Origin: Candidatus Omnitrophota bacterium
GTDB taxonomy: Bacteria > Omnitrophota > Gorgyraeia > Gorgyraeales > Gorgyraeaceae
Length of the DNA stretch: 64,000 nucleotides
Direction of reading: 5' to 3'
NCBI GenBank assembly: GCA_043814965.1
Contig: JBDRJN010000006.1
Span: 7,838-71,837 of the forward strand
Made by a program: the position numbers and the translations under genes. The notes below the pieces were generated by a model. It worked only from the letters and a program-made list of their open reading frames with translations. It was not told the origin of the DNA and made no database searches. Numbering within the stretch: the first letter of the stretch is position 1; the number at the start of each line of letters is the position of its first letter. This document shows, one piece after another, positions 33,001 through 61,699 of the stretch.

Positions 33001-36000
33001 TAGGAGAACCAGCAATAAACTTTTTAATAGACGCTTTACCTGTGTATTTTTATCAAGGTTCTTATAGTGATAATTATTATCCTGCAGAACGATTATTACG
33101 ATTTATATTGCATGGGAATTCTCTGAGATTGTACAAGGCGTTACGCGAACCGCTTTATGAGAATACCCAGAGAGCAATGTCTCTTCGCGTGAAAAGGGAT
33201 CTAATGATAATAGATATACTGAAACAATCAGGAGCTGATGGTTTTTCAGGTTTTAAACTTAATGTTGGTAATTATAATGACCTATTCGATGATAACCCAA
33301 AGATCAGAAATGAAGCATATAAAATCCTTAATAAGGAAGGGTCTGCTAGAGAGTTAGTAAGGATCAGTAGGTTATTTAATAAATTAAGAGACGAAGAGGC
33401 AGCAATAAAGGACCAGGAAATAATAAATAATACAAAGGAAGGAAAACTAAATGCCTGGCGTATACGAGAAGCTATCAATAGGATCGGTAAAAATAACGCA
33501 ATTAGTTATTTAATGACAGGATTCAGTAAAGTTAAGACTATTGAATATGCGAGATCGATCACAGAGTTGGATACTGTTAAAGGAATGAATAGTTTAAGCC
33601 AACTTTTAGACAGTGATAAGTTTAATACTGGTTTTGAAGCCTCGAAGACATTATTAGAAATATCCAAAAAAGATTCTTTAGACCTTACTTCTTTTTTAAG
33701 TAAAGACAGGATGGAGAAGTTAAATACTTATAAACTGGTAAATGGTTATGATTGGTATAAGAAATTAGATAGCCTTGGTCAACCTACGATCTCTAACCTA
33801 AAGAAGATGTTGCAGTTAGATGTAGATACAGAAAACAGAATTAAGATCCTCATTGCTTTAATAAATAGAGGGGACAAGGAATTATTGCCTGACGTATCTG
33901 ATATTATAGAGAACCATGAAAATAGTGATATAAGGTATAGAGCAGCTAATATACTTGGAGATACAAGTAGTTATTGGGCTGAAGATGTTCTTTCGAATAG
34001 TTTAAAAAAAGAGAAAGATGTTAGGGTCAGGAGATCATTAATAGAATCTCTAGGTACGCTGAAATCTAAAAAAGCGTTTAGTTACTTAATAGAGCTAGTC
34101 AAAAAAGAAAATGAAGATATAGATATAAGAAAAGCAGCTATTAAAGCTGTTTCAGATATAGGCTACAAACCCCCTGAATTAGTAGATATCTTAATAAATA
34201 AACTAAGTGATTATTCACTTAAAGAAGATATTTTTGAAGCTATTGGAGCGTTAAAGATTCAAGAGGCAGTCCCGCATTTAATAGATATGATAGAAAAAGA
34301 GATGGATAAGGACAGCCATAATTTTGAATTAATCAATAAAGCGGCAAAGCCATTAGGAGATATAGGGAATAAAGATGCCCTGCCTATATTAATTGACCTA
34401 TTGGATATAGAGAAGAACGGAGTCTTAGAGACAGCAGTTGAGGCAATAGCAAAAATTGGCCCACCGGAAGACATGATAGATGACCTTATAGATCTATTTG
34501 AATTTAGAGAAATGAACGAAGATAAAAAAAGCCCTTACGATCCTTCATCCTATTACAGTACAACATTATGGGGGAATATTAGAAACGCCTTAGTAAAGAT
34601 AGGAAAACCTGCGCTTCCTTCATTGTTAGAGGCTTTTGCAGATGAGGATATACATGAAGAGAGAGGGTATTTTAGTGGGGATAGGGTCAGTGATTATATC
34701 AAACAAGCTGTTTCCGAGATCGAGAATGTTTCTTTAGACACAGATAGGAAGCTGGTTGACTATCTAAAATCAAAATTAAGATCTACTGATTCTGATATAA
34801 GAGATTATGCCTCAGATGTCTTAGAATTGCCTTATTTAGCTAGGATAGTGAGAGAAGATGAATATAATGAGACGCTTGATTCTATGGAGTCAAAGAAGAT
34901 CAGTGATCATGATGGTGCTATTGATGACTTGATCGATATTTTAAAGTTTAAAGAAGGCAGTAATGCGCTTCATGAAAGAGCAGTAAAACTACTTGTTAAA
35001 ATAGGAAAATCCGCAATACCTGAACTATTCGAGCTTCTTACGGATGAAGACGCAGTAGATAGTAGATATGTCAAAGAAGCTTTTTCTAAGATCGAGAACA
35101 TCTCTTTAGAGACTGATGAAGAATTAACCAGCTACTTAGAATCAAAGCTTAGATCCGATAACTCTAAAATCGTAAAAAATGTCTTAAAGGTACTTGATAA
35201 GATCTCACCTGACTCAAAAGTTGCAGCTAAATTCAAAAAAGAACGCACTGATCTATTCCTGAAATGGCTTGGTATCGCAGTTATCGCAGGCGCAGTATTA
35301 ACTGTACTAACTGCTGCATGGAGGGCGTGGCGCCAGGTAATGAAGGAACGCGCTGACAATGATCCTGCAGTAGCCTCTAATACTAAAAAGTCAATATTCA
35401 GCAGGATTTATTCTAAGATCAAGGATAAATTTACATTGTTTACGCTTATAAGTACTTTTTTAGTCATACCTAATCTATCTACAGGCATTTTTGCGCAGAT
35501 GCCGCAAGGGTGGAAACCGATATCTGAATATAATTATGATGAAGAAAGGCGAGTATATAGGAATAGAGCTTACTTAAAGATGCTTAATTATATTTCAGAA
35601 AATGGGATAAAAGAAAAAACCCATGAAGAATTAAGCCGCTTGGTTTATTTAGCAGACTCTTGTGTCTTGGAAAGAGAGAATGAAGAGAATACAAGAAAAT
35701 TAACAAGACATGGAGACCTTGCAGTTGTTGCTTTAGTGGAAGCTGTCAGATATTTACCTCTTCCATGGAGTGAAGATGGAAGGGCGGTATATTGGCAGAA
35801 GCGGTATATAAAAGAGGCTATTAAAAAAATAGGTAGTCGTTCAATACCTGCATTAGTATACGAAGTGAATGATGCTGATACTGCTATATATTTATTTGCG
35901 TTGGGTGTGCTTGGTGAATTAAAAAATGCTGGATCAGCTGTCGAACTTGCAAAATTAATAAATTCAGATAAATTCGAGGATGGAACTATAAAGATGCAGG

Positions 36001-39000
36001 TATGGGACGAACGCATTGGAATGTATATGGATAAGAAAAAGACAAAATTTGAAGTTATTTTAGAAACAATAGTAAAGATAAATAACAAAAATACAGTGCC
36101 GTACTTGTCAAAATTACTTACAGAAACAGTGGAATATGATGATATCTTTGAAGAAACGTATTCTTTTTATTCTATATATTCAGAGGAAAGAGAAAAGGTT
36201 GTATGTGCTATTGGTCAAATAGGAGGGGAGAAAGCTATATCTATTTTGGATAATGTATTAAAAAAGGATAAAGACCCATTAGTACGAATAAAAGCCATAC
36301 AAATGCTGGTAGATATTGGTAAACCTGCTGCTTCAAGCGTAATCAAGGCATTAAAGCATAAAGATAACAAGGTAAAATCTATAGCTATAGAGGCGATTGC
36401 TAAGACAAAAAATATAGAAGCAGTAGATAATTTGATACATATATTAATAGCTGAAGAGGATTGGCATATTAAGGAAATCGCAGGCCAGGCGCTTATTGAT
36501 ATAAGCAAAGAACATTCTTTAGACCTTGTGGAGCATGCTAAGAAAGAAGAAAAAGAATTATTAGATTTATATTTATTTATTATTAAAGGCGAATGGGAGA
36601 ATGTTGTTAAAATTGGCAGGCCAGCAATACCAGTCTTAGCTGAGCTATTAAAGAGCAAAGATACAGGGATATATAAGTCTGATCCTATAACTGTTCTCGG
36701 AGATATAGGCGATCCAAAGGTAACGCCTATCTTGCTTGATTTTATAGGTGAAGACGTGGTAGGGCCTGCAGCTCTTGAAGCTTTTATGAAAATAGGAAAA
36801 TCAGCTATTCCATACCTCATCAATACTTTAGAGAACAGCAAAGATTATTTATTAAAAGGAAAGTCCATTTATATACTTGGGAAATTAGGACATGATAATA
36901 AAGAAGTGATGAATATTTTAATTAACAATCTTAAGGGAGAAAAATATATAAAGCAGACTATAATTGCGCTTGGAGAGGCAAGGCCGCAAGAAGCCCTTTC
37001 TTATTTGATAGATATTGCGGAAGACGAAGATGATGCAAATATTTTAACTTTAACCGCAGAAGCCTTGGGAAAAATAGGAGACAAAAAGGCATTGCCTGCT
37101 TTACTTGAGTTATTGGAAACAGATGATTATAATGTCCTCTCTTATACTATGGATGCTATTGAAAAAATAGGCGTAACTAAAGATGCGATTGATGGATTGA
37201 TAAATGTATTAAAATTTAAAGAAGGAAATTACGGGATTTTTGAACAGGCTGAAAGGCTTCTTATAAAGATAGGGAAACCAGCGCTTCCATATTTGATCCA
37301 GGCAGGAGAAGATAAGGAGATAATAGCACCTAGTTATATTGAAAGAGCTGTAACCAGCATAGAAAATAATCCAGAAGAGATAATTGGCTATCTAGAATCT
37401 CAGCTTAAATCAGATGACAATAAAATGGTAAGAAATACCTTAAAGGCGCTTAAGATAATCTCACCTGACTCTAAAGCCGCGGCTAAATTCAAAAAAGAAC
37501 GCACCAATATATTCCTAAAATGGCTGGGTATAGCAGTTATCGCAGGCGCAATACTTACTGTACTTACTGCTGCATGGAGGGCGTGGCGCCAGGTTATAAA
37601 GGAGAACAAGATCAGCGTATTTATTGGAGGAGCGCTATTAACAGTTTTTTACTATTACTTATCTAATGATATGTCATTACCCATGGTCTCCCAGGCCTTA
37701 TTCTTAGGAGGAATTGTTTTAAAGAAAGATGAGTTCAAAGAATTAGACGCCTTATTAGAGTCAAAAGTGAAAAATAGCATGGTGTCTTTACATAGGAAGA
37801 TAGTCAGTGATTCAAGGAATAAAATACTTGGAGAAGACAAGAGAGAGCTTTATGAATTCAGTCTCAGGGACATAAAGAAATGGGCAGAGTTCTTTAATAA
37901 ATATAAAAGAGACTTAGGAGAGGCGGGAGCATTTATTAAAGGAGCGTATTATATATATTATGACAGGATGGAAAATGATCTTGATAGAGGTAGAGTATCT
38001 GGCCATATAGAAGATACGATATCAGGCTTGTTCCCGGAAGAAGAACTCCAGAAAAAGAGCTTAACGGACCTAGTAGATAATATAGGAAAACAAGATAAAA
38101 ATGTCTCCCAGGTAGAAGATATAAGATTGACATATCTTGAGGAAAAAGACGATACTTACAAGATATTAGACATTGAACTCGATATAAATCATAGAGATGA
38201 AGATAAGACACATGTGCCTGATAGAAAATCTTCAGAGCTTGTGCCTATTTCCCACACCATAGAAGACCTTGAAAAGATAGCCCAGGCAACAGCTCTTAAA
38301 GAGCCGGTTCTGCTTGTAGGAGAGACTGGTGTGGGGAAGACTTCTCTAGTCAGGTATCTTGCATCAGTTACGAATAATAATTTCAGGAGGTTCAATCTCA
38401 ACGGCCAGACTGATAAGACAGAGTTTATAGGAGGTTTTAAACCAAAAAATGAAGAAGGCAATACTGGATTTAAATGGAAAGACGGCATATTGATAGAGGC
38501 GATGAAGAAAGGACATTGGCTGCTTTTGGATGAGATAAATCTTGCTGAGCCTGAGATAGTGGAGCGCATAAGATATTTACTGGATAACAATGGATATCTT
38601 GTCGTAAGCGAACACGACGGAGAAAAATATATAAGCGCGGAAGAATATGACCAAAAGGTAATGGAACTTGTAAAAGGATACGAGGCTCAAGGCATAGAAA
38701 AGGCCAGAGAAGAGTTGATAAAGGACGCTATAGGCGAACTAAAATCAGGGCCTAGTCCTATATTCAGGATCCACCCTAATTTCAGGCTTTTTGCCACAAT
38801 GAACCCTCCCGAATACGAGGGCAGGAAGGATATGTCGCCCGCGCTTATGAACAAATTCAGGGTCAAATGGATAAAAGACCTTACGGAAAACGATATAAGG
38901 ACAATAATCCAGAAAAAATACAGATTCGATAAGGTTATAACTGATTCAATAATGGAGTTCCATAAAGCGCTCAAGAAACTTAACGGAAAAGACGGCTTGC

Positions 39001-42000
39001 TTGGAAGACAAGAAGGCCATACTTACTGCTTTACTATCAGGCATCTATTAAGGCTTGCAAATAGGCTTGATGACAGAAGAGAGAAAAACCTTTTAAATTC
39101 AACAGAAGATATTATAAGGGTATTATCTATAGAAATACAGGAAGTCTATAGAGAAGAAATAAAAGGCGATAGTGATATAAGATTATTTAATAACACGCTT
39201 GGTGCTATTTTTAAGGCAGGGGACTTGGATAAGGATATAGTTGTAGAGCAGAACAAGGAAGGCGGGATATGTGTAATAGGCCAAACAAGATTTCGCATAA
39301 AGAGCGAAAGAGGAAAGCTTGTACCAGGAGATGACGCTATCCTTAAACATGTTCCTACTACTAAAAAGTATCTTTCAAGTATAGCAAGAGCTGTAGACAT
39401 GAAGGAAAAGGTGCTTCTTGTAGGGCCTACAGGTTCGTCAAAGACATCCCTTATAAAGTATCTAGCGCACCTCACAAATAATGAATTTACAAGAGTAAAT
39501 CTTGATTCCCAGACTGACACGTCAGAACTTATAGGAAAACTTGTCCCGAAGAAAGAAGGGAACGGATTTCAGTGGACTGACGGTATCCTTGTAAAGGCCA
39601 TGACAGAAGGCCAATGGATACTTTTGGATGAAATAAACCTTGCTGAGCCTGATATATTGGAAAGAGTGAATTCGCTTTTAGATGACGACGGCTATATAGT
39701 GCTTACAGAAGACAATAACAGGAAAGTAGAATGCCACCCTGATTTCAGGCTTTTTGCTGCTATGAACCCGGAAAGCTATTCGGGAAGAAATAGATTGTCC
39801 AGGGCTATGAGGAATAAATTTTCAGAAAAATGGATCTCAGGGGATATGCCGAAAGAAGAGATAGAAGAAGTAGTAAGATTTTATCTTACGGATAAAGATA
39901 TTGCAAAGACTTTACCTATTGAAGAGGGCATAGCTGTATCAATATCCAAGGAAATAAGAAAAGCATATCTAACTATAAAAGATATGATTGATTCCGGCAG
40001 ATTAGGCAAACAGAAATTAAGCGGAGGAGATATAGGTGATTATGAGTTTAGCATGAGGGACCTGAGAGATTGGGCAGAATTTGTAAGAAGGCTTTCAAGC
40101 GCATCTAACATGAGCCACACAGAAGCCATGATACAAGGCGCATTGTATATCTTTAGAGATAGGTTAGAGGGGTTTGAAGATAAAAAGATATTTGAAGAAG
40201 AAATACTTAATAAGATAGACCAGGGTTCGATCTCTGCTAAAGAAAAGATAAATATAAGTTCCTTGGATGTAACAGAAGAGGAAGGCAGGGGAGAAATAGA
40301 GATATTAAAGCAGAAAATGGAAGAGGGAAGGCTTGATGAAGGAAAAGATCCGCAGGTAGTAGTATTGAAAAAATTTAAAGACCTTACAAAAAATCTTCCG
40401 ATTGAACTTAAAGGAGACCTTTATACAATAGAGAGTAAATTATCAGGTAATGATATGGCTCAGGGTATCCATGGATTTGCGATGTTGCCAGAGGGTATAG
40501 CTAAGGAATTAGTGGAATTTATACTTAATATGCCTGAGCTAACCCGCACTGATAATAAAAATATCGTTTGGAGCATGAAAAAAGCTGCTATAGATGTAAT
40601 AAGTTATCTTGAGAATAGCGGTATAAATATAAAAGACGCAATGTTATATATTCGTTTGAAAGAGGCGCTTAATAGCCCTTCTCAGGAAGTGAGAATAGCT
40701 AGCGCCTTGGCGATAAATTTAGATAATAATAGGACAAAAAAGCTTATAAAAGACCTCAAAATAGAAAGGCCTGATAAATTACCCAAAAAGGATATAAGAG
40801 AAAAGCTAAGCAAGGATTATCTAGGTATAGATGATTTAACTAAAGATGGAAATTCTAATATCCTTCCGTCAATACTATTTGGTATTTTAGCTCAAATTGT
40901 AATAGGAACAGGTAATCTATTAGGTTTAGAAAATACTTTTCTAAAAGTCGTAGCTTTTATAGGATTCTCCCTGGTTCCTTACGGGGTTTTAGCCTTGGTA
41001 AAGCAAACTTTATCTTTTAGCTATAACCTTATTTTCTCAAGGCAATATAAGATATTAAATAATATATATAAAAAGATACCTTTAAAATTAGCCGATTTTT
41101 ATGAATTAGTAAAAGATTTCTCTAAAAAACTTTTAGACACACGAACTTCAAATCTCAAAGCCGGTAAGGATAAAGAAAAAAATAGACTAACATTTTCGTC
41201 AGTAGTGGGAGGCCTTTTGATGGGCGTGACATTTGCTTTACGAGATGACTATATATTGCCATTTATTGCTGATTTTGTAAAGGATGCTTCAGGTTTGTGG
41301 GCTTCAGGAGGTGTATGGGCCCTACTTGGTTTAATGTGGTGGTCATTTTCATGGGTATTATATGCAGTACAGGATAAAGTCTTAACAGCTTTAAGGGAGA
41401 TGATATACCAGCCTTTATCTCGTAAATACGATCCTAAGAAGAAGGCAAATGAAAATTTTGATGCTTCAAAGGATATCTTAAGAGCGTATAGCCCTGAAAC
41501 AGTACAATCCTTCTCTCATCATAAAAAGCGTGATCCAGAAGAAAAGAACAGCTATTCAGAACTCTATACAAAGAAAGATCTAAATACAGTATTGAGGGAA
41601 GACGCTATAAGGCTGTATGAAGAGAACAACACTGTCAGTATAATGGATATAGCCTTGGAGATCAACAAAGACGAAGACATGCCTAAGAACCATGTGCCTG
41701 GCAAAAAGACAGCAGGACTCGTAAAGACAGTGTCTACTGTAAAGAATCTAAAGAAGATCGCGCTATCTATTGTAATGAATGATCCAGTGCTATTAGTAGG
41801 AGAATCCGGAGTTGGTAAGACCTCGCTCGTAAGATACCTTGCGTATCTGACAAACAATAATTACAGGAGATTTAACCTAAACGGCCAGACAGATAAGACA
41901 GAGTTTATAGGAGGGTGGAAGCCCAATAAAGAAGGCGGTTTTAAATGGGTGGATGGTATTTTAGTAAATGCCTTGAGGAGCGGTGACTGGCTGGTCTTGG

Positions 42001-45000
42001 ATGAGATCAATCTTGCAGAGTCGCAGGTAATAGAGAGGATAAATTCACTACTTGATGATGACGGACAACTTAGGATCACTGAAGGTGAAAAAGAAAGAGT
42101 GTTTATTAAGTCAGCTGAATATAGAAAGAGATCGAAGGAGATAGAGAACAAGGAGAGCATTTTAGAAGAAGATGCTATGAAGAAATTGGAAGAAGAGGGG
42201 ATATTTGAGATAAATCCGAATTTCAGGCTATTTGCTACTATGAACCCAACTGAGTATGCTGGAAGAAATATGCTTTCGCCTGCTCTTATGAACAGGTTCC
42301 GCGTGAAATGGATAGATGATCTATATACTAATGAGAAACAGGCGATCTTGAACTTAACATATGGCGATAAATATAATAACCCTGGGCTTAGCCAGAGACA
42401 TATAGAATATCTCACTCTCTTACATGAGGGCTTGCAGGCGCTTAGCGCATCAAGAAAACTCGGAGAAGAAGAAAGAGACCCTTATTACTATAGCCTAAGG
42501 GACTTAAGGAAGGTCTGTGACAGGGCATTGAAGAGGATGAAAAGCGAAAGTAAACCAGGCGAAGAAGTATCCGATAAATTAATAAATAATATTTTATACC
42601 AGGAATTCTTGGAGGTTTATGGCGACAGGACAAGAGATGAGCATGACTATGAAATATTAAAGGATATTGTATTAGGTACGAGGTTTGCTGGTGCGTTAGA
42701 AGATAATAAGTTTGACATAGTAGATAATAAAAAGACAACTTCATTTGGTGGTATAGAGATTGATAGATGGGACAAAGGTGGAAAATACATTCCTAGTAAT
42801 GAGGCAAAGCTTATAGAAAGCAAAACCACCAATAGGTACCTTAAAAAACTTGCTAAGAGCGTTTATATGAATGAAAAGACGCTTTTGGTAGGCCCTACAG
42901 GAAGCGCCAAGACGTCTTTAGTGAGGGGTTTAGCGTATCTTACAGGGAATAATTTTATGAGGATGAATCTTGATGCGCAGACTGATACAGGGGAGATAAT
43001 AGGGCATTTTATCCCAGAGGAAGGTTCTAAAGATAGATTCAAGTGGGTAGACGGAGACCTTGTTACTGCAATGAAAGAAGGCTATTGGGTGCTCTTTGAT
43101 GAGTTAAATCTTGCTGAGCCTGAGATACTAGAGAGGATAAATTCACTTCTCGATGAAGATGGTTCTTTAGTTATCACTGAAAACGAAGGAGAAAAATATA
43201 TACCTAGCGAACAATTCCAAAAACTAAGAGAGGAATATATCAGTAAGGGCCTTATAGATAATAATAACGAAAAGAATGTAATAGTTGTAACTAACGATAA
43301 AGGCGAGACAATAGAGAAGATATACGAAATACACCCTAATTTCCGATTGTTCTGCGCTATGAACCCAGAAAAATATTCTGGCAGGAACAGGCTCTCTATC
43401 GCAATGCGCAATAAATTGACAGAGATATGGGTACCTGGCCTTACTGATAAGGAAGAGATAAAGCATATAGTAAAAGGCTTTTTAGGGATCCCTGAAGGTG
43501 TGTCCAAGGATGTTATCGCAAGCCAGATGGTGTTCCTAAATGGTGAATTAAATAACCTAAAAGAAGAAGATCCCGAAGGTATATTAGAGGAGTATGAATT
43601 TACTATACGCGATCTAAAGGCATGGAGTGGGTATATAAATGAGTTCCAAGGTAAATTGGGCCTGGAAAACGCTTTTATAAAAGGCGCAAGGTATATATAT
43701 TATGACAGGTTCAAAACCGACAGCGAAAGAAAAGATTTTATAGAACTTATAAGAAAAGCTGTATCTAGGGAACCTCAAGAATATATAAATGAAGTCTTTA
43801 ATGCGAAGAGTAGTGAAGACCTCAAGGAACTTACTCCTGACGAAAACAATAAACTGCATGTATTGGGCGTTACTCTTGATATCAATAGAGAAGGAGGAGA
43901 GTATGTACCTGATATAGATAGATCAAAGCTCGTAATAACAGATGAGACTCTAAAAAATCTTGAAAAAGCAGCAGAATCTGTAAAGCTAAATGATAATCTA
44001 TTATTAGAAGGAGAGACGGGCGCAGGAAAGACTTCTTTAATAAGGTATCTTGCATCTATAACTAATAATAACTTTAGCAGGTTCAATCTTAGCGGCCAGA
44101 CAGAAAAGACAGATTTTATAGGAGGTTTCAAGCCTAAGGATGGTACTTTCGAATGGCAGGATGGCATACTCATAAGGGCATTAAAAGAAGGCCATTGGCT
44201 TGTCTTGGATGAGATAAATCTTGCATCATCACAGGTAATAGAGAGGATAAATTCCCTATTAGATGATGATGGTTTTATAGTAGTTACGGAGAATAAAGGC
44301 GAGAAATATATAAAGAGTGAACAATATCAAGCACTTAAGAAGCAATATACGGATGGCGGATTAAGCGAAGGAGAGGCAAAGGAAAGGCTTAATAATGTAG
44401 ACAGGATATTCGAGATAAACCTCAATTTCAGATTATTTGCCACTATGAACCCAGTAACATATGCCGGAAGAAAGAGATTTTCAAAAGCGCTTCTAAATAG
44501 ATTTAGGGTAAAGTGGATAGATGAGCTCCCAAGAGAAGACCTTAAAGAGATATTAGTTGAAAAATATAACCATACTAATATATCCAGTAAGCCTATAGAT
44601 AAGGCGCTGGATTTTTATTACAGCGCCAAGACCGCGGCAGATAAATACCCTCAGCTAAAATTGTGTTTTACAATAAGACATGTCTTAAGATGGTTCGATA
44701 GGATTAACTCTTATACCGGAAAAGATGTCGATAGTATGTTTGCTCTAGAGGCAGGGGAAGTATTTCTGGATGGTTTAGGAGAAGAGATTTCGGAACAAGA
44801 GATAAAAAGAGAGCTTGTAGAAAATATAAGAAATATCTTTGGCAGTCTGTACGAAGACAATGATATAGATATAGACAAACAAAAAGATACTATTAGCTTT
44901 GGAGAGATAAAGATAGCTGAGAAAAAAGGTAAGAGAGAACAATATATAGATAGAGAGCCTTTGTATGAGACAGATTCTACAAAAACGCTTTTAAAAAAGC

Positions 45001-48000
45001 TAGCAAAATGTGTAAATCAGAAAGAGCCGGTTCTTATGAAAGGCCTTACCGGAGGAGGAAAGACCTCTTTACCGAAATATTTATCTGATCTCACAAATAA
45101 TGATTTTGTTACACTGGACTTGGATGGCCAGACTGATACTGCGCAACTTATAGGGCAATATATCCCTGATGAAAATACAAAAACTGGTTACAGGTGGCAG
45201 GATGGGCTTCTTATAAGGGCAATGGAAAATGGCTGGTGGATACTCTTGGATGAGATAAACCTTGCTGAGGCGGATATATTGGAGAGGATAAACTCGCTCT
45301 TAGACGATGATGGGTATATAGTCCTGACTGAAGACAACAATAGGAAGGTAAAATGTCATCCTGATTTCAGGCTTTTTGCTGCCATGAACCCAGAGACCTA
45401 CGCAGGAAGGGCGAATCTTTCAATAGCGATGCTCAATAAATTTCACCAGATATGGGTTCCAAGGGATTTTACAGAAAAAGAAGATATAGAATTAGTCGGT
45501 CATTACTTAGAGACATATACAGCAATAGATAAGATGTCTTCCAGCGTACAGCATATAGAGTATAGAACTATGATAGAGAAAATGCCTTTTGATGTTATGT
45601 ATAGCGTGGCTGATCCATTAGGATTGATATATATAGGTATTAAATCGTTAAAGTCACTGATATCAAGTAAAAGGCATGGGCTTGATCTAAGTGTAAAATA
45701 TTATAATGAAAAAGGAGAAGAGATCACCGAGGACCTAAATAGAAAAGAAAAAAGAAACCTTAAAAAATTCAATCGCAGGCTTAAAGATATAGGTGTAGTA
45801 GCAAGTTATTTTGGAGGGGATTTTGAGGTAGATATACGCCCAGGGAAAAGATGGGCTATAGGATATCCTAAGGATCCGAATGAAAAACCAGTAATAACAT
45901 TCCCTAAGAATGAGCTTCTGGAAAAAGATAAGGATGTTGTGATAGGCAGTGCTTTACATGAAGCAGGACACAGAGACATATCGTGGATGGATAGTTTCTT
46001 TACCGAAAAAGAATCAAGAAGGTTTTTACTTAATGCAGTCGAGGACCCTCGCGTAAATGAATGGACTACTCTAAAGACAGAAGGGACAAGGAAATTTACA
46101 GAAGCTACATACATAGACGCATACCCAAAAGAGGCTAAGAAGAGTTTTGATGAACGAGGTATTATGCCTCACATACAGTTTGGCCTTGGGCTTATACATT
46201 ATTGGTATTATGGCGAAGAACACCCTGCGATAAAAAATACTAAAGTGTTAAAAGCTCTCCAGGATACAAGAGTGGATGCTGTAAAGGCATATAATATACA
46301 CGCAGGCACTATTACTATAACAAGGGATAAAGATATAAAGGATGGATTTATATTATATTCGCCTACATATGGTGAGCAGAAAATAGACTTGAAACTTGGT
46401 GATAGGCGCGCCTTGAGGATGAAAGACGCAGGGATGGTAGAGAGAACAGGCAAAGAAGAAATAACGTTTTATACAGGAGACGGAGAGATCCCAGTCATTT
46501 TTAAAGAAGAAGATTTCAGCAAGAAGAGCCTTTTAAATATGCGCCCGAGCGCAAAGGATAAGGAAATAGCAGCGATTGAATCAGCAAGGATCATAAAAGA
46601 AAAGATATTGCCTGTATATGAGACACTTGTAAAAGAGTCTGTAGATAATAAAAAAGAGGAGTTGAAAAAAGATAGCCTTAGCGAAGATATACAAAGCCAG
46701 GCCGAAAAGGAAGTAGAAGAAGAATCAAAGAAAGCAGCTGATGCATTAGGCCCAAAGATCTCAGAAGATGATCTAGAGGCCTCGGAGGATAAAAAGACAA
46801 AAGCTAAAGAAGACAGACAGCCAACGCCTGAAGCTAAAGAAAAATCACAGCCAATGTCAGTTGACAGCAAGAATGCGGAAGATGAAGACAAGAGAGATGG
46901 CAGTGATATAAAGGAAAGCGCTGAAGACGTAAAAGATGAACCAGGCGAACGTGAAGAATCCGACAGTGATAAGGAAAATAGGGGAGGCCAGGTTGATGCA
47001 GAGAGCTTCTTTAAAGATATGGTAAGAAAGTTTGAAACAGAAGTACCACAAACTACATATGACAATTACTATAGAGGCATAAGCAGGATCATAGAAAAGC
47101 TCTTTGGTATCCTAGATAATGAGCTCCATAAAGATACAAAATTTAGATATAAAGGCTATTTTGCAACAGGACCTAAGCCTGATATGAGAAAAGCAATGAC
47201 AATGAAAGAGACGGGAGATATGGATATATGGCTTAAACGTGTCAAGGCTATACAAAGAAGTTTTAAATTTAGCTTGGTTCTAGATGAAAGCGGATCTATG
47301 GGGCGCGGAGACAAGACAAACCCTGCTGTACAGGCCATGATAATATTTATGGAGGTTCTCTCCAGGTTGAACATAGATTTTTCTATAATAGGCTTTAGCG
47401 ACTCGCCTTCTATTCACATGAACTTTGGTGAAAGCTTCAAGCATAGTAAGAATAAAGTAGTAAAAGAAGTTATCAGATACATGGGTAAAGGCGGGACGAA
47501 TGACGCAAAGGCAGTAGAAAAGGCAACTGCCTTATTAGATAGGGAGATAAGTGATACAAAGATCATGATAGTGGTCAGTGACGGCTATGGAAATAGGGAG
47601 CTATTACGCAAGAATTTATTAAAGGCATATAAAAAAGGCATAGATGTAATAGGTCTAGGCATAGGATCTGGCATGGATTATGTTAAGGAGGTCTATGACT
47701 GCGCAAAGGTCATAGGGGACTTGAATGATCTGCCCAGGATAGTAGCCCAGGTGCTTATAGACATAATCGTAAAAGGAAAACACGTAAGGCGCAGTAATAG
47801 AGACAACGAGGTAGACATCTCTGGGGAAGTAACTAAGATAAATAAAACACAATCTGACGTCCCGGATAGCTTGACGCAATTAAACTCCATACCTATATAT
47901 CAATATATCGGTGCAGGCATAAAAGCGCTGAAGGCAGGCAGGAAACATCTAAAAGATATTAAGAAAGAGAGAGAACTCAAGAAAAAAGAGGAAGAAGAGA

Positions 48001-51000
48001 TCGCAGAACGCATGGAATTATCCAAGCCGACAGAGGAATATAAACCGACAATACATTCAGCCGGAGATCTAGCGATCCATGGAATAGACAATATGTCGTT
48101 AGAGATAGAACAGGGTAAAAACGCATATCTATACGGGACAATAAATCTTAATGTTGCAGCCAAGAATGTTACTGAGGCCTCAAAGGTAGTGCAGGATATA
48201 AAAGCCGGTTTGTTCACAGTTACTAAAAAAGATAAATTAAAATTAAAAGATATATTTGAAAAAATAGAAATAGTCAATGCATGGGATGAATCCGGCAAGG
48301 AGATCTTTGATGCTGGCAAAGAAGAAGAAGGCCAGGTCGGCACACTTTTAGGAGCAAGGTCTTTACGCTATAGGATAAAAGTTCCATGCGAAGAAACAGG
48401 CGAGTTCAAATATGCTTTAGGGTTTACATTCGATCCAAAGCTCAATGGAAAAAGCTGGAGTTATGTAAGAGATAATATTGGCATAAGTTCCTTTGCAGTA
48501 ATAAATGTGATAGATAAGACCCAAGCTTTTGAAAACAAGATCTTAAATGTACTTAGCGGGATATCCTTTAGCAGTTTAGAAGAGTTGATGGATAGGTTTG
48601 ATAACCCAGAGGAGAAAAAGAATATCTATGCCGCACTTAACAACCTATACAGCAAAAAGGCTATCAGTGTCATCTATGATAATATCGACCAGAAAGAGCT
48701 CCGTTATAGTTCGACTTCTTCCCTGGAAGAAGGCTTAAAGAACGGATCAATAATAGAGGCCAAGTCAGGCACAAAGATAAGGTTTTTTACAAAAGACGCG
48801 ATAGAAAAATCCGGCAAAAACTTAGTAAGGTATAAAGAAGGGTTATTTGATGTCCTGGATAAAGCTACGCTGCAATCCAAGCTTGATAAAAATGAGATAA
48901 GGCCTGTTTATACCAAAGAAGGCACCCTGTTTTATGAGAGAGAGTTAGTGCACAGTATGATAAAAGAGGAAAAGATCATACTCAGTAATTTCATTAACTC
49001 CGGACAATTTTTTATATTGGCAAAAGACAAAGATGATTATTTAAGAAAAGAGTTAAATAACTGTAAGAGTATATTTGAAGAGAACTTTAAGGACGCATCA
49101 AAGAACATACATGAGGCCTATGGATCAGCCCGCGAGATCTTTAATACTCCACAAAGGATAAATAGCTTAAAGAGGGCAGTGGAGATGGCTGTAAGCTTAA
49201 AGAAATGGAACGCTGATGACTATACTATCGCAGCTGCATTTTTGGAGAACATAGACCTTGAGAATAAAGATCATATAAAAAGGATAAAACAATTTGACAA
49301 AAGGTCAAAGGTCTTGAATATCCTTAAGAATTTCAGGAATGTATCCAACCTTCCGCATATACTAGAGCTGAATCTGGAGAACCATCTTGATATCCAGTAT
49401 AAGATGGACATGATCATAAAGACCTCGAGGACCCCGGAGGTAATGCTGCTTACATGGGCTGATATATTGAACAGGGTGAAGTCCGAGGAAAGAAAAGAAA
49501 ACTTTAAATATATTGCTCAAGCAGCAAGGACGCTTTACGGCCCCTTAGCAGATAGATTAGGCAGGGAAGATGTTGCCAAGGAGATCTGGCATACTATCTT
49601 TGAAAAGCAAGACCCGGAATTATGCAAGAAGGTGACAGAGGCAATGGAAAAAAGAATAGGCATGACCCTTAGCGAAGGAGAAGTGTTTTTGCATGAAGCA
49701 AAACTCAAGATAGAGAAGTATTTAAGAGACAATGATCTTAAGGCAAAGGTATACATAAGGGTCAAGTCACCTGTCTCTATGTTCGACAGGGCAAGAAAAG
49801 GACAGACAAAATATTCTACAGAAGAGGTCTTGCGCATTATCGAGACATCAAAAATGCTCAGGGATACATTAGGTATCATGGTGGTATTTGATGAGGAAGA
49901 ATACAAGATACACCAATCAGTATATTATATCGCAGCTGAGATAGCCAACATAGAAGAGGCATCGAAGTTCAGGAGAGAGGCGCTTTATGTCGACTATCCA
50001 AGGTATAGTTTCTACATAAAAGCAGAGAATGGCGCAGATATGAGCTTTATGGCTAAAGACAAAGATACCTATAAGACATATAGAGTAGGAGAATCTGCGC
50101 ACTGGCATTTTAAATTAAAAGACAGGATACTGGAAGGAAAGAAGCAGAGTTTTGAGTATTGGCCGGATGGCCTGGAATATGCAGGAGATTTTGAAAAAGA
50201 TTTTAATGCTCTAGTAATCGAACTGGATAAATATAGTTATGTGTATTATGCAGAACCTTCAAAGCAGTACACCTATCCCAAGATCATAAAACTTCCCTCA
50301 GGTTCTATTGCTGTAGACCTTGCGAGTGAAATGGGTGTATTGAACAGTGATTTTTCAGGAGTCACAGTAAAGAACCTTAAACATGACTATAATTATGGCA
50401 AAGAAATGGGAGGAACTATAAGATCAAGCCATCAACCATATGGCATTGACTATCTATTAAAGGATGGAGATATAGTCACTCCGTATAGCAGCAGAGAAGG
50501 ATTTCCTGAAAATAAAAGACTAGCCTTGACAGAAGCAATGAATAGATCGAAAAATCAGGCTGCCAGGGATTTTATAAAAGGGAAATTAAATATGTCCAAT
50601 CTAAGGATAGCTCAATGGGGAAAAGAGAGCTATCCTATACTGAATAAGATATGGCGTAGTATACTTATGGTGACAGGAGTTACACCTATACATGAACTTG
50701 GCCATATTTACGGAGCTCTTTTACAAGATGATGATAAAGTCATAAATAGCACTAAGACAATAGAAGAGTTTGAGATAAATACCAAAGGAGTATTCTTTGA
50801 AGGGAGGCTTAAGGGCCTGAAAGGGTCTTCTTTACTGTTAGGGGCTGCAGCAAATCTGATAGCTGTACCATTGGTAATATTTTCAAGTTTAGGAGCTGGA
50901 TTTGATAGTGTGTTGACGTATGTAGCGGGACTTCATATTATAGCTGGCCTTGTAGAAGTATTTTCCAGTAAGGGTGATGTAAGAAAGTTTTTTGGAGAAA

Positions 51001-54000
51001 GGCCGCTAAAAAGCATCATAGAGGATATACGTAACGGCTTGAGATCCATAAAAGACGATATATTTAAAGATAAATATAATATAAATAATGATCCTATAGA
51101 GCTTACTACACGAAAGAACTTTGAGGAGATCACCGAGAGATTCGAAGGCATAATAAAACACGGCAAGGTCTCTTCATCTGAGAAATTGCGGGATAAGATA
51201 ATACTTCTTACTATCAAGACGCCTCCTTTAAGGAATATGGCAGTATGGACGCTTAATAATATAAGTTCACGTCCAGCGCTGAGAGAAAGGCTTTCATTTA
51301 TACTTCCCATGCTGAAGTGGCTTCAGTCAAAATTTATAATCCCTGTATCAAGTAACCTTGAAGAGGCGACATATGAAGCAGAAAAAGTGATCCTTGATAA
51401 TAGGAAGAATGGCATTGGCCTTACACTTGACAGCGTCGGAGATGCTGTGCATTCAGAGGAAGAAGCAAAGCTGCATGTCGATCATTATCTCAGCATGATA
51501 AGGAATCTCGGGCCTAAAGCAAAGGACTGGGAGAAAAATGAATCTCTCGACAATGTAGAAAGGCTTCATTTTTCAGTAAAGCTTAGCGCTATTGTATATG
51601 ACGCGTGGAAAAAGAAAGGAAGAGGGTTCGCTAATAAATCAAAGATAAAAGAGACACTTAAGACACTTATAAGAGAAGCTAGCATTTACAATGCCTTTAT
51701 CCGCATTGACCTTGAAGAATACGGATACCGCGATACTACCATGGATATCTATAAGGAAGTCATTGAAGATCTTGCCAAGGAGGATGAGAATACCGTGGTA
51801 AGTGATGACAGGGGCACATTGAGGGTAGGGGTCGTAGTGCAGGCATATCTAAAAGATTCAGGAAAAGTCTTAAATGACTTATTGAACTGGGGAGAGACGT
51901 ATCATTATCGCGTGCCAATAAGGCTAGTAAAAGGCGCGTATGACGACAAGGAAAAGAAATGGGCAAGAGGCGAGTATAAAGAGGGCGAAGATGTATTTAA
52001 TGGAGGCAGGCCCTACCCAAGCCCTGTATTCAGGGAAAAGGAATCCACAGACGCTCATTATGAACTATTGAGTGAATATCTTATCATGAATAATGATAGG
52101 TTCCAGACAGCTATTGCATCGCACAATATCCGCTCTATATCACACGCAATGAGCCTTGCTGAAAATTATGAAGTTGATAAAAAGGATATTGAAATACAGA
52201 TGCTTTATGGCATGGGAGACCCTGTGAAATATGCTATCAGAGATCTAGGTTATCGTATTCGCGCGTATGCTCCTATAGGCTCATTTATAGAAGGTATGAA
52301 ATACTCGGGCCGACGCCTTAAAGAGCTTGCGAATAAGAGCAATGCGCTTACTAAGACCATGGCATGTGATTATAGATTCTTGAGAAGATTGAAAAAGGCC
52401 CCTAAATTCCAGTATGGCGACAGCCCTATTTATGTAGCAGAGGAATTTGTGGGAACACTTGAAGGGAGAAAAGAGGAGCTGCGCCTTAATAAAGCAAGAA
52501 GATGGTATGAGATATTCCCGTATAGTTTTATTATTGAGCATCCGTCTATCTTAGTATCGTGGCTCAATCATATACCTAACGCGGTCTTATATGGTTTTAT
52601 AAAACAGTTATTCCAGCCTTTTAATTATAAGTCCAGGGAGTTGGTGGATGAGTTGAGGCACAGCCTAAGACAAGAAAGGACATACAGCGCATTTATACTG
52701 TTGGATAAGATAAAAAAGATCACAAATAGAAGGTCACTTAAGTACTTATTGAATATTCTGTTCGATAAAACCATAAACAGCGAAAAGTATGAAGAAGTAA
52801 TATTAGAGATCAGAGACCATATCCAGCATATAAGGCATAAGCTTTATGCGTATAATGTAAAAAAAGATGCAAAGAACATGAAATACGATGAATACGACGA
52901 TATAAAGAAAGATTATCCATTTTTCTTTGATGATAATCAAGGCACATACCAGCATTTACGAAAGATAGCAAGCTATAAAGTGAGAAAATATAGAAGCATG
53001 AAAGGCAGTATAAATATATGGATCCCCGGGGGAGTGTCATTCTTTGAAGACGGGCCCAAGATACCATCTGCGTATATGGCAGCTATAATATTCCTGGAAG
53101 AAGCAAGGAAACAGGGATTAAAAGGCGAAGAGTTGGAGGAATTTAAAAAGGACCTTAATATTACTGTTACAGATGGCAATAAAGACGCGCTTTTACATGG
53201 CGAGATAGGGTCTTTTAATATCAATGCATTTATAAAAGAAAGCAGGCCTCTTACAAAAGAGGATAAAGAGATAGTCGAGAGATATTTTGATATCACAAAA
53301 GCTAGCGGGAGGTTAAAGGTAAAGCAAGATATAAGAGATATAATAAAATGCAAGAATGAACTATCTGTAAATTATATAAGGCCAGGGTTTTTTGATATTA
53401 TCATAGATCAGTTCGTTGAAACCAAGATAGAGATGCGCAATGAAGGGGACCGCTGGCCGATCCTAAATAACATACGTGTCGGAAACTTCATAGAAAGCCT
53501 TAAAATAGACGGAGATATCATCACTACGGGGGACAAGGGTTTTGAAGATAGTTCTTTTTTAAGAGGATATTCCAGTAAACTTCCTGTAAGCAGTTATTTC
53601 GGGGGAGAGAAATTGGAAGGATTTGCAAGGGTATACCAGAAGACATCACCTGCGTTTTACGATAACTGGCGGGACTTTGCTGCTGAGATCAATATGTTTA
53701 AAATTATTAAAAAGGATGGGATTAAATTAATGGATATCAGCCGGAAGATATTGGATACAGCATATGACTTGGCAGAGTTTGTTCATGGAGGACAGATAAG
53801 GACCAATAATAAAGAACCATATATGGAACATCTTGTAAGGACCACTATGATGCTCAGGGATGTATTCAATGTATTGGATAGATTCAAGGTCTCAGAACAT
53901 ACAAAAGTAGACCTATCAGGGTTATCCAATGATGAGATAAGACAGATAGATGACCTGTCAAGCGAGATAATATCTTCGATCGCGCTATTACATGATTCAG

Positions 54001-57370: not shown

Positions 57371-57396
57371 CGGGTTACGGGTTACGGGGTACGGGT
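57371..57396 (+). repeat. G-tract repeat 'CGGGTTACGGGTTACGGGGTACGGGT' (G3N4G3N4G4N3G3: canonical G-quadruplex-forming pattern) filling the whole SBP-permease intergenic gap
   Basis: Read directly; 69% GC in an otherwise AT-rich context, abutting the ATG at 57397. Confidence 0.8.
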
Positions 57397-58287: not shown

Positions 58288-58365
58288 ATAGTCATGATAT
58301 CAAAAATCAAAGATTAAAATGCAAAATTATAGATTAAAATTCAAAAATAAAAAAGAGAGAAATTA

Positions 58366-59214: not shown

Positions 59215-59216
59215 CG

Positions 59217-59235
59217 CCTGCCTGCCGCAGGCAGG
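59217..59235 (+). terminator. GC-rich perfect hairpin (9-bp arms 'cctgcctgc' / 'gcaggcagg') directly after the permease stop; no U-tract
   Basis: 59217-59225 is the reverse complement of 59227-59235. Followed by G-tracts rather than T-run, so terminator function is uncertain. Confidence 0.3.
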
Positions 59236-59307
59236 GGGTACAGGGTACGGGAAATGGAGTAGAGATGGCTGATTACGGGTTACGGGTTACGGGGTACGGG
59301 GTACGGG
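59234..59307 (+). repeat. Second cluster of GGGTTAC/GGGGTAC G-tract repeats (G-quadruplex-type), flanking and overlapping the start of the glycoside hydrolase gene
   Basis: 'GGGGGTACAGGGTACGGG' 59234-59251 and 'CGGGTTACGGGTTACGGGGTACGGGGTACGGG' 59276-59307. Same unit as 57371-57396. Confidence 0.8.
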
Positions 59308-61613: not shown

Positions 61614-61699
61614 TGGAAGGAGGTGTGTTCTAAATATCAAAAATTAAATATAAAAATCAAAAATGAGAAAAGAAACATGAACCAGAAAGGAGTGGTAGT

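What the first reader, a model, noticed from the sequence alone, without database searches (positions are those of the whole stretch)
38200..47780. Complete midasin (Rea1/MDN1)-like module: six tandem AAA_5 ATPases, then a D/E-rich tract, then a MIDAS vWA domain, in a prokaryote-style gene
Six in-frame P-loops (38319, 39423, 41799, 42891, 44010, 45042) each carry the AAA_5/midasin hallmarks 'W.LLDEINLAE' and 'HPNFRLFATMNP..Y.GR..LS.A..NRF', plus a recurring lid motif '(Y/C)xF(S/T)(L/I)R(D/H)L'. After the ring come a ~120-aa acidic tract (46650-47010) and a vWA domain with an intact DxSxS..T..D MIDAS (47250-47780). In eukaryotic midasin the MIDAS docks onto the AAA ring and pulls assembly factors off pre-60S ribosomes, so this order implies an ATP-driven single-chain mechanoenzyme that grips a ligand through its MIDAS. 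Unlike midasin the linker is short (~380 aa), and a seventh lid-like motif ('ELYEFSLRDIKKW', nt ~37846-37890) precedes AAA1, hinting at a degenerate AAA0. It is also unlike bacterial MoxR/CbbQ-vWA pairs, where the AAA and vWA are separate proteins and the AAA is a single domain.
Basis: partly seen in the sequence, partly recalled or inferred. Interest (0 to 1): 0.9.

Follow-up and report, generated by a model that had tools for sequence, protein, structure and literature searches.

The report
Bacterial single-chain midasin-like AAA–MIDAS machine
Inside a giant (more than 18,500-residue) membrane protein of an Omnitrophota bacterium sits a real six-ATPase ring fused to its own metal-dependent "gripper" domain; it is built like the eukaryotic ribosome-assembly motor midasin but arose separately, by fusing and triplicating a widespread, unstudied bacterial two-gene system.

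Summary
There are six in-frame AAA_5 units (Pfam E 1e-159), a 121-aa acidic disordered tract and a VWA domain with an intact MIDAS. All lie in one 55.6-kb ORF of a Candidatus Omnitrophota MAG.

- Both halves are specifically midasin-like. The AAA units match Rea1/Mdn1 at E 1e-155, against 1e-13 for CbbQ/NorQ. The VWA is closest to the midasin MIDAS and includes the ring-docking "MIDAS loop".
- The six units do not map one-to-one onto midasin AAA1-6. They are an (AB)x3 triplication.
- The "seventh lid" is probably AAA6's missing sensor-2 lid, moved to the N-terminus.
- A ~430-aa insertion with four hydrophobic (likely membrane-spanning) segments splits AAA2 from AAA3.

The module is the fused form of a bacterial operon: a one- or two-domain AAA_5 ATPase plus a zincin–linker–MIDAS protein. 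I found this operon in many phyla (up to 685 clusters at 50% identity).

Most likely it is a membrane-tethered, finger-in-pore, ATP-driven remodeller, possibly coupled to cleavage. It is a new variant of a known kind. Interest 0.65.

The parts
37509..37667 (+). Two hydrophobic (probable transmembrane) segments just upstream of the module
   Evidence: Kyte-Doolittle scan: aa 12502-12520 (score 2.29) and aa 12536-12554 (1.35).
37734..38144 (+). Pre-lid: an AAA small-domain fragment with the sensor-2 motif YEFSLRDI. There is no large domain upstream of it. Proposed to be the permuted sixth lid.
   Evidence: Pfam MDN1_4th E 3.7e-13. My unit HMM matches only lid positions 243-329. It aligns colinearly, together with AAA1, to AAA4-lid+AAA5 at 42% identity. 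It is conserved in L004, L006, L007, L008 and P0062.
38184..39287 (+). AAA1 (odd type, GETGVGKTS) with complete lid
39291..40376 (+). AAA2 (even type, GPTGSSKTS) with complete lid
40377..41663 (+). Insertion of ~430 aa between AAA2 and AAA3: a HEAT-like stretch plus four hydrophobic segments (nt 40872-41000 and 41184-41369)
   Evidence: An insertion with 4-6 hydrophobic segments sits at the same place in L004-L008, P0001 and P0004-P0006.
41664..42755 (+). AAA3 (odd type) with lid
42759..43874 (+). AAA4 (even type) with lid
43875..44909 (+). AAA5 (odd type) with lid
44907..45752 (+). AAA6 (even type, GLTGGGKTS): catalytic motifs intact, but no sensor-2 lid motif
   Evidence: The same loss is seen in all five homologous loci.
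45753..46751 (+). Zincin-like HExxH domain (HEAGH at nt 45957; NAVEDPRVN) with a beta-rich insert and a helical hairpin
46752..47048 (+). Disordered acidic low-complexity tether
   Evidence: AF2 pLDDT <50 for residues 334-432 of the model. Composition: D+E 33-34%, net charge -14 to -18. Its composition is not conserved in homologues.
47049..47777 (+). VWA/MIDAS domain. It includes the counterpart of the midasin MIDAS loop ('finger', nt ~47130-47252) and DxSxS at nt 47283-47297.
   Evidence: Pfam VWA E 5e-14. Profile vs PDB: midasin is the best hit, E 3e-19. Foldseek: MDN1 MIDAS 8ql1 E 4e-9, TM 0.69; then Rea1 MIDAS and NorD VWA. The finger aligns to the Rea1/Mdn1 loop at 15-16 of 54 identities, with 0 of 2000 shuffles reaching the score.

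Best explanation
The module is a membrane-tethered, single-chain AAA+ ring with its own built-in adaptor.

Anatomy (shown):
- Six midasin-type AAA_5 domains, arranged as three A-B pairs.
- A zincin-like HExxH domain.
- A disordered acidic tether.

Origin (shown): it is the fused, triplicated version of a widespread bacterial two-gene system. That system pairs an ATPase of one or two AAA_5 domains with a zincin-linker-VWA protein. By sequence, both proteins are closer to midasin than are any of the prokaryotic AAA_5/VWA systems with solved structures.

How it most likely works (inferred by analogy with Rea1/Mdn1 and NorQD):
1. [quoted passage not shown]
2. The N-terminal pre-lid completes the AAA6 site and the AAA6-AAA1 joint.
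3. The VWA swings back on its tether and inserts its finger into the pore.
4. The MIDAS metal grips an acidic residue of a target protein.
5. ATP hydrolysis, possible at up to six intact sites, twists or pulls the VWA and so remodels or extracts the target.

The zincin site is near-invariant across the family. I therefore take cleavage of the gripped polypeptide as the most likely output. This is the weakest step.

Encoding all six domains in cis hard-wires the 6:1 ring-to-adaptor ratio. A domain buried in an 18,000-residue membrane protein could hardly reach that ratio by self-assembly.
For: Architecture and motifs.

Specific kinship to midasin:
- AAA units. A midasin AAA3 unit scores 137-148 bits against bacterial di-AAA units, 64-69 bits against CbbQ/NorQ and 49 bits against CobS.
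- MIDAS.

Finger-in-pore precedent: Rea1 MIDAS loop (PMC6624252); NorD VWA finger and a single NorD per NorQ hexamer (PMC13036017).

Operon forms:
- L003: di-AAA 733 aa plus HV 854 aa. L001: mono-AAA 490 aa plus HV 685 aa. 'HV' is my shorthand for the HExxH-linker-VWA protein.
- The two genes are adjacent in 11 of 11 operon loci, from Omnitrophota-unrelated MAGs labelled UBP9, Vulcanimicrobiota, Bacillota, Burkholderiales, Gammaproteobacteria and Patescibacteria.
- Named di-AAA homologues also come from Eremiobacterota, Armatimonadota and Acidobacteria MAGs.
- The HV family has 685 clusters at E<=1e-30.

Conservation of the fused form: the same layout (pre-lid, AAA1-2, insertion with hydrophobic segments, AAA3-6, HV) occurs in L004, L005 (N-terminally cut), L006, L007 and L008. 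In the four loci with complete upstream sequence (L004, L006-L008) there are six large domains and six sensor-2 lids, with the sixth lid displaced.

Zincin fold and invariant HExxH...NxxED.

The insertion has an even number (4) of hydrophobic segments, which keeps both halves of the array on one side of the membrane.
Against: - No structure of the whole ring could be predicted because of the 1,200-aa limit. Ring closure, the role of the pre-lid and docking of the finger are all inferred.
- The ~430-aa insertion could instead separate AAA1-2 from AAA3-6 functionally.
- No target is known. Gene neighbourhoods show no universal third partner, and no UBL-type ligand was found in the ORF.
- The acidity of the tether is not conserved in homologues.
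- The transmembrane calls rest on a simple hydropathy scan.
Confidence: 0.55

Rival explanations
1. It is a cofactor- or metal-insertion chaperone of the NorQD / CbbQO / CobST type. It has the same finger-in-pore mechanics, but the output is opening of a target enzyme (perhaps one of the enzyme domains of the giant protein) for metal or cofactor loading. The HExxH domain would serve as a metal-holding or target-binding N-terminal domain, not as a protease.
For: CobT is the second-best PDB match of the HV profile (E 6e-16), and CobT_C and VWA_CoxE give weak Pfam hits. NorD VWA is among the top structural matches. All characterised prokaryotic AAA_5-VWA pairs are maturation factors (PMC13036017; PMC7159879). 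HD, proline dehydrogenase and other enzyme domains lie in the same ORF.
Against: The AAA units are far closer to midasin than to CbbQ, NorQ or CobS. The HExxH...NxxED motif is near-invariant in 46 diverse members and sits on a zincin fold, which is typical of peptidases. The operons are not next to any recognisable metalloenzyme client.
Confidence: 0.25
2. The six AAA domains do not form one ring. The A-B pairs would act as separate units, or would assemble between molecules as the stand-alone di-AAA proteins presumably do by trimerising. Alternatively, some are structural relics.
For: A ~430-aa insertion with four hydrophobic segments separates AAA1-2 from AAA3-6. Stand-alone di-AAA proteins exist. 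Fused forms with only two AAA domains plus HV also exist (P0138, P0104).
Against: Exactly six large domains and six sensor-2 lids are kept in the window and in the four loci with complete upstream sequence (L004, L006-L008), with position-specific orthology of the units. All six keep the Walker A, Walker B, sensor-1 and Arg residues. AAA6 has intact catalytic motifs, which need an Arg finger from a neighbouring large domain, and that implies closure (inference from general AAA+ knowledge). Four hydrophobic segments return the chain to the same side of the membrane.
Confidence: 0.12
3. It is a true midasin orthologue, acquired from a eukaryote or ancestral to midasin as a six-domain protein, with a ribosome-related function.
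For: Eukaryotic midasins are the best hits outside the Omnitrophota group. The domain order is the same, and the midasin lids and MIDAS loop are conserved.
Against: There is no one-to-one correspondence of the six units with midasin AAA1-6; the units are closer to each other than to any midasin unit. There is no midasin N-terminal domain and no ~1,700-aa linker; a zincin domain stands in its place. The module is embedded in a giant membrane protein. Operon forms are spread across bacterial phyla. Bacteria lack the Rsa4/Ytm1 ligands (general knowledge).
Confidence: 0.03

Closest known systems
Eukaryotic midasin (Rea1/Mdn1/MDN1)
   Same: - Six AAA_5 domains in one chain with midasin-type lids (Pfam AAA_lid_7, MDN1_4th).
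- A disordered acidic tract followed by a C-terminal MIDAS VWA.
- The VWA is most similar to the midasin MIDAS in both sequence and predicted structure.
- It carries the counterpart of the pore-inserting MIDAS loop.
   Different: - The units are an (AB)x3 triplication with no one-to-one orthology to AAA1-6.
- All six sites look catalytically competent.
- The sixth lid is displaced to the N-terminus.
- A ~430-aa insertion with four hydrophobic segments lies between AAA2 and AAA3.
- There is no N-terminal domain and no ~1,700-aa linker; a 333-aa zincin-like HExxH domain takes its place.
- The acidic tract is ~100-120 aa rather than several hundred.
- It is part of a bacterial membrane protein of more than 18,500 aa.
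Bacterial di-AAA_5 + zincin-linker-VWA ('HV') operons (uncharacterised; labelled 'midasin' or 'AAA family ATPase' by annotation pipelines)
   Same: The AAA subtype is the same (39-40% identity to the window units). The HV unit is the same in its HExxH domain, low-complexity tether, finger and MIDAS (28-44% identity).
   Different: In the operons these are two separate proteins with one or two AAA domains, so the ring must form by oligomerisation. Their last lid is complete, and they have no membrane insertion. The window fuses everything and triplicates the pair.
NorQ/NorD, CbbQ/CbbO, CobS/CobT (MoxR-class AAA_5 hexamer plus one VWA adaptor)
   Same: An AAA_5 ring works with a single adaptor built as N-terminal domain, linker and MIDAS VWA. 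The NorD finger enters the NorQ pore. CobT also has an acidic tract before its VWA.
   Different: Those systems use separate polypeptides and a homo-hexamer of single-domain ATPases. Their sequence similarity to the window's AAA units is much lower (41-51 bits for the whole 2,767-aa query, against 509-523 bits for midasin). No zincin HExxH domain is reported in them. Their known roles are metal insertion or Rubisco activation.
FtsH-type AAA+ metalloproteases
   Same: An AAA+ ring and an HExxH zinc site share one membrane-anchored chain. This is a possible functional analogy.
   Different: FtsH belongs to a different AAA clade (classical, not the helix-2-insert/AAA_5 clade). It has an M41 peptidase fold, forms a homo-hexamer and has no VWA. 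The similarity is analogy only and was not tested.

Membership tests
Midasin (Rea1/MDN1) family | Six tandem AAA_5 domains in one polypeptide with midasin-type lids | tested here: met
   Pfam AAA_5 E 1.4e-159 with six stretches, plus AAA_lid_7 and MDN1_4th. PDB phmmer: midasin E ~1e-155.
Midasin (Rea1/MDN1) family | One-to-one orthology of the six AAA domains with midasin AAA1-AAA6 | tested here: not met
   The window units are 36-45% identical to each other and 27-32% to midasin AAA2-5. The NJ tree groups odd and even units separately from the midasin clades, with weak support (31%) for the deepest split.
Midasin (Rea1/MDN1) family | Long (~1,700-aa) helical linker between the ring and the D/E-rich region, and an N-terminal domain before AAA1 | tested here: not met
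   A 333-aa zincin-like domain sits between AAA6 and the acidic tract. Upstream of AAA1 are HEAT repeats, hydrophobic segments and a lid fragment.
Midasin (Rea1/MDN1) family | D/E-rich disordered region before the MIDAS | tested here: met
   121 aa, 34% D+E, net charge -18, predicted disordered. It is much shorter than in midasin, and its acidity is not conserved in bacterial homologues.
Midasin (Rea1/MDN1) family | C-terminal MIDAS (DxSxS...T...D) with the midasin-specific pore-docking loop (element II) | tested here: met
   DESGS/T/D are intact. The HV profile aligns across the Rea1/Mdn1 loop and beta1. Pairwise identity is 15-16 of 54, with 0 of 2000 shuffles reaching the score. Foldseek's best hits are MDN1 and Rea1 MIDAS. 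Actual docking was not tested.
Midasin (Rea1/MDN1) family | Removes UBL-domain assembly factors (Rsa4, Ytm1) from pre-60S particles | not testable with these tools
   No such ligands are known in bacteria (general knowledge). No UBL domain was detected in the ORF by Pfam.
MoxR-class AAA_5 + VWA adaptor systems (NorQD, CbbQO, CobST type) | AAA_5/MoxR-class ATPase working with a partner that ends in a MIDAS VWA, encoded together | tested here: met
   In the window the two are fused. In L001, L003, L009 and L011-L017/L020 they are adjacent genes.
MoxR-class AAA_5 + VWA adaptor systems (NorQD, CbbQO, CobST type) | Homo-hexamer of single-domain ATPase subunits and a separate adaptor polypeptide | tested here: not met
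   The window has six different AAA domains and the adaptor in one chain.
Zincin (HExxH) metallopeptidases, gluzincin type | HExxH on an active-site helix, a third acidic ligand on the following helix, and a preceding beta-sheet | tested here: met
Zincin (HExxH) metallopeptidases, gluzincin type | Zinc binding and peptidase activity | not testable with these tools
   Needs biochemistry. No Pfam or NCBIfam peptidase family is matched, and Foldseek E is >=0.2.

The most novel reading that the evidence does not exclude
This reading has two parts.

1. The bacterial di-AAA_5 + zincin-linker-MIDAS operon family is the direct prokaryotic stock from which eukaryotic midasin arose. This would replace the generic 'MoxR' ancestor. 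Omnitrophota-like bacteria then independently reinvented the single-chain six-domain ring.

2. The machine is a new kind of ATP-dependent protease. A MIDAS grips the substrate, an AAA_5 ring pulls on it through a finger in its pore, and a zincin domain cuts it. In the giant protein this could process the giant polypeptide itself or captured prey proteins.
Probability: 0.25. Interest if true: 0.85.

Novelty: new variant of a known kind. Interest (0 to 1): 0.65.

Why it matters
The textbook view is that six tandem AAA+ domains in one chain (dynein, midasin) arose early in eukaryotes from single-domain MoxR-like ATPases (PMC3495828). Three points follow from what is here.

1. A bacterium has built the same solution in parallel: a single-chain six-AAA_5 ring with a tethered MIDAS.

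2. The one- and two-domain operon relatives are much closer to midasin, on both the AAA and the MIDAS side, than the prokaryotic systems studied so far. That makes the origin of midasin testable by phylogeny. It also offers small, soluble bacterial models (about 730 aa plus 850 aa) for the finger-in-pore mechanism.

3. The zincin domain is unexpected and is conserved in up to ~685 sequence clusters. It suggests an unstudied family of AAA-MIDAS-peptidase machines.

For Omnitrophota giant proteins, whose function is largely unknown, this is one of the few parts with a readable mechanism. It must sit in the cytoplasm, which helps to orient the topology of the rest of the protein.

Tried and rejected
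- A homologue search with the whole 3,356-aa module timed out; I used shorter queries instead.
- A search with the HV region returned only 5 hits, probably because acidic-tract words dominated the word index. The exhaustive profile search replaced it.
- Biopython bootstrapping timed out. My own NJ/bootstrap had a distance-saturation warning, so its support values are conservative. I rely mainly on the identity matrix.
- Pfam and NCBIfam gave nothing for the HExxH domain, even at E<=1.
- PADLOC gave only generic P-loop hits, so there is no evidence for a known defence system.
- Foldseek of the full HV model was dominated by the VWA, so I spent the second AF2 job on the HExxH domain alone.
- The search for a conserved third partner found none. 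A 147-150-aa gene occurs only in mono-AAA operons. PmbA/TldD occurs in only two loci.
- Alignments A1 and A3 needed trimming before the tools would accept them.
- Literature searches found no description of a prokaryotic six-AAA_5+VWA protein or of the zincin-VWA adaptor. The library is incomplete: Iyer et al. 2004 could not be read.
- I rejected an 'AAA0 remnant', because no large-domain signal lies upstream.
- I rejected the minus-strand ORFs 41861-42415 and 46469-47065 as genes. They lie inside the giant ORF, and the second mirrors the GA-rich acidic tract.
- I rejected an assembly artefact, because the same layout appears in five independent MAG contigs.

Full report
**Setting.** Nearly the whole window is one + strand ORF (nt 6-55586, 18,526 aa, still open at the 5' end).
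- It is followed by an ABC sugar-uptake operon and glycoside hydrolases.
- Two downstream proteins are exact matches to NCBI entries from a Candidatus Omnitrophota MAG (MFH1478645.1, MFH1478647.1; contig 152,804 bp).
- This is the 'giant gene' setting described for Omnitrophota (bioRxiv 10.1101/2023.11.21.568195; PMC10066038).
- Those papers list AAA_5 among the frequent domains of giant proteins. They do not describe the module studied here.

Walker A motifs lie at the six reported positions.
- Pfam gives AAA_5 at E 1.4e-159 in six stretches, midasin lid families (AAA_lid_7, MDN1_4th) and VWA.
- All six units keep the Walker A Lys, Walker B Asp-Glu, sensor-1 Asn and the GR arginine.
- The acidic tract is real but modest: 121 aa, 34% D+E, 19% K+R, net charge -18. 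It is nonetheless the most D/E-rich stretch of the ORF and is predicted disordered.
- The MIDAS residues are intact.

The units alternate between two types.
- AAA1, 3 and 5 (GE[TS]G.GKTS) are 44-45% identical to each other.
- AAA2, 4 and 6 (G.TG..KTS) are 42-46% identical to each other.
- Odd versus even units are 33-39% identical.
- Between AAA2 and AAA3 lies a ~430-aa insertion with a HEAT-like stretch and four hydrophobic segments. Two more hydrophobic segments precede the module.
- The lid fragment before AAA1 has no large domain upstream. It aligns, in continuity with AAA1, to the AAA4 lid plus AAA5 at 42% identity over 409 aa.
- AAA6 keeps its catalytic motifs but has lost the sensor-2 part of its lid.

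**Conservation of the layout.** A scan of species-representative genomes recovered the same layout inside giant ORFs: pre-lid, AAA1-2, insertion with hydrophobic segments, AAA3-6, C-terminal unit.
- It occurs in four MAG contigs labelled 'uncultured Planctomycetia/Planctomycetales' and one labelled Omnitrophota. The Omnitrophota contig is cut at its N-terminus.
- Partial NCBI proteins from Omnitrophota show the same layout.
- In every case AAA6 lacks the sensor-2 motif. Where the upstream sequence is present, a pre-lid carries it.
- The count is therefore always six large domains and six sensor-2 lids, with one lid displaced.
- From the general rule that a small domain packs on the next large domain in AAA+ rings, I infer that the pre-lid closes the AAA6-AAA1 joint. 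It would not be a relic of an 'AAA0'. This is inference; I could not model it.

**Relation to midasin, AAA side.**
- The six-unit region matches Rea1/Mdn1 at E ~1e-155 (523 bits, 7 stretches). CbbQ, NorQ and CobS match at 1e-13 to 1e-10.
- Outside the Omnitrophota group, the best database hits are eukaryotic midasins.
- The window units are closer to each other (36-45%) than to any midasin AAA2-5 (27-32%). No window unit prefers a particular midasin unit.
- An NJ tree separates odd and even bacterial clades from the midasin AAA2, 3, 4 and 5 clades, though the deepest node has weak support.
- The six-fold array therefore arose by triplication of an A-B pair within bacteria. It does not descend from a shared six-domain ancestor. 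Gene conversion could blur this, so a proper ML analysis is still needed.

**The C-terminal half is one conserved unit, which I call HV.** Alignment of the region after AAA6 with homologues shows four parts: an HExxH domain, a low-complexity tether of variable composition, a conserved segment, and the VWA.
- A profile of HV hits the C-terminal MIDAS region of Mdn1/Rea1 best in the PDB (E 3e-19 to 8e-19). CobT follows at 6e-16 and integrin I domains at ~1e-8.
- The alignment runs through the segment just before beta1, 'G(D/Y)(F/Y)xTGxxLxxR...IWLRRxKPxxR'. In Rea1 this is the MIDAS loop (element II).
[quoted passage not shown] NorD has an equivalent 'finger' in the NorQ pore (PMC13036017).
- The window segment aligns to the yeast loops with 15-16 of 54 identities, and 0 of 2000 shuffles reach the score.
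- The AF2 model of the whole HV unit has a confident VWA (pLDDT 80-89) and a disordered tether. Its best structural matches are human MDN1 MIDAS (8ql1, E 4e-9, TM 0.69), Rea1 MIDAS and NorD VWA.

**The 'linker' is a zincin-like domain.**
- With a 46-sequence alignment, AF2 gives pLDDT 92.5 for aa 15250-15584.
- HEAGH lies on one helix and NAVED on the next, preceded by a small sheet. A beta-rich insert and a long helical hairpin follow.
- H, E, H, N, E and D are near-invariant across the 46 diverse members, as are the MIDAS residues.
- Foldseek finds only weak matches to minigluzincins.
- No Pfam or NCBIfam model covers the domain.

**Origin: a bacterial two-gene system.**
- P0125 (685 aa) is a stand-alone HV protein that directly follows a 490-aa AAA_5 gene (L001).
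- P0038 (733 aa, two midasin-type AAA_5 domains with complete lids) is directly followed by an 854-aa HV protein, in a contig with ordinary bacterial genes (L003).
- The genome scan found di-AAA+HV pairs in MAGs labelled UBP9, Vulcanimicrobiota, Bacillota and Burkholderiales. It found mono-AAA+HV pairs in Gammaproteobacteria and Patescibacteria MAGs. The two genes are adjacent in 11 of 11 loci.
- Named di-AAA homologues also come from Eremiobacterota, Armatimonadota and Acidobacteria MAGs. JGI's pipeline already calls several of them 'midasin'.
- An exhaustive profile search finds 685 clusters (50% identity) at E<=1e-30. Most are 620-890 aa, and some sit inside proteins of 3,000-7,500 aa.
- Other fused forms exist: HEAT array + 2 AAA + HV (P0138), and at least five AAA + HV (P0265).
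- A fungal midasin AAA3 unit scores 137-148 bits against the bacterial di-AAA units. It scores 64-69 bits against CbbQ/NorQ and 49 bits against CobS.
- This family is therefore a much closer prokaryotic relative of midasin than the systems studied so far.

**How it most likely works.**
- Shown: the parts, their order, the intact catalytic and MIDAS residues, the finger homology, the zincin fold, and the operon ancestry.
- Inferred:
  - One ring of six domains forms on the cytoplasmic side. ATP is needed, and four hydrophobic segments return the chain to the same side.
  - The pre-lid closes the ring.
  - The VWA docks by its finger, and the MIDAS grips an acidic residue of a target.
  - ATP hydrolysis twists or pulls the adaptor, as proposed for Rea1 and NorQD.
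- Fusion fixes the 6:1 ring-to-adaptor ratio, which matches the single NorD seen bound per NorQ hexamer.
- The output is uncertain. Because the zincin site is under strong conservation, I favour cleavage of the gripped chain. The main rival is a cofactor- or metal-insertion chaperone.
- No target could be deduced. There is no universal third gene, and no UBL-like domain in the ORF.

**Novelty.** The kind is known: an AAA_5 ring plus a MIDAS adaptor, and midasin as its single-chain form. What is new:
- a prokaryotic single-chain six-domain version that arose in parallel;
- its permuted sixth lid;
- its insertion with hydrophobic segments inside the array;
- the zincin domain in the adaptor;
- recognition of the operon family as midasin's closest prokaryotic relatives.

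I found no paper describing any of this. The library is incomplete, however, and automated annotations ('midasin', 'AAA family ATPase', 'VWA domain-containing protein') already exist. I rate it a new variant of a known kind, interest 0.65.

Noticed in passing
window 47800-55586: The C-terminal ~2,600 aa of the same giant ORF carry an HD_4 domain (nt ~49150-49560) with a weak TGS hit after it, which resembles a RelA/SpoT-like layout. They also carry a proline dehydrogenase domain (nt ~51380-52340, Pfam E 1e-64) and a GNAT acetyltransferase (nt ~54700-54960).
   Followed up: partly
window 50691-50960: A second HExxH motif (HELGH, nt 50691) lies just before two strongly hydrophobic segments (nt 50835-50960), with a weak Peptidase_M54 hit. 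It may be a membrane-embedded metalloprotease-like element. P0124 has a similar HExxH next to hydrophobic (likely membrane-spanning) segments after its VWA.
   Followed up: no
window 6-24000: The first ~8,000 residues of the ORF have no Pfam hit at all at E<=0.001.
   Followed up: no
window 35253-35309 and 37509-37565: A nearly identical hydrophobic motif, LFLKWLGIAVIAGA(V/I)LTVL, occurs twice, 752 aa apart. The regions between the two copies are not detectably repeated.
   Followed up: partly
L001 3964-4404; L015 11883-12329; L017 11995-12441; L018 3953-4417; L020 11871-12320: Operons with a single-domain AAA_5 plus HV carry a conserved third gene of 147-150 aa with no Pfam hit. It is absent from di-AAA operons and from the giant ORF.
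   Followed up: partly
L003 15178-17884; L013 12649-15316: A PmbA/TldD metalloprotease pair lies directly downstream of the di-AAA+HV operon in two related loci. It may reflect shared synteny rather than function.
   Followed up: no
window 46469-47065 (-) and 41861-42415 (-): Minus-strand ORFs of 198 and 184 aa lie inside the giant ORF. The first mirrors the GA-rich acidic tract. I treated both as spurious.
   Followed up: no
P0138 (3,123 aa), P0104, P0265 (3,190 aa): Other fused architectures of the same family exist: a long HEAT array + two AAA_5 + HV; HV + HEAT + AAA_5 pairs; and at least five divergent AAA_5 + HV in one protein of ~3,200 aa.
   Followed up: partly
window 56045-63662: Downstream of the giant gene lie a sugar ABC transporter (a solute-binding protein and two permeases) and GH2-like and other glycoside hydrolase genes. 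This matches the carbohydrate-import context reported for Omnitrophota giant genes (bioRxiv 10.1101/2023.11.21.568195).
   Followed up: partly
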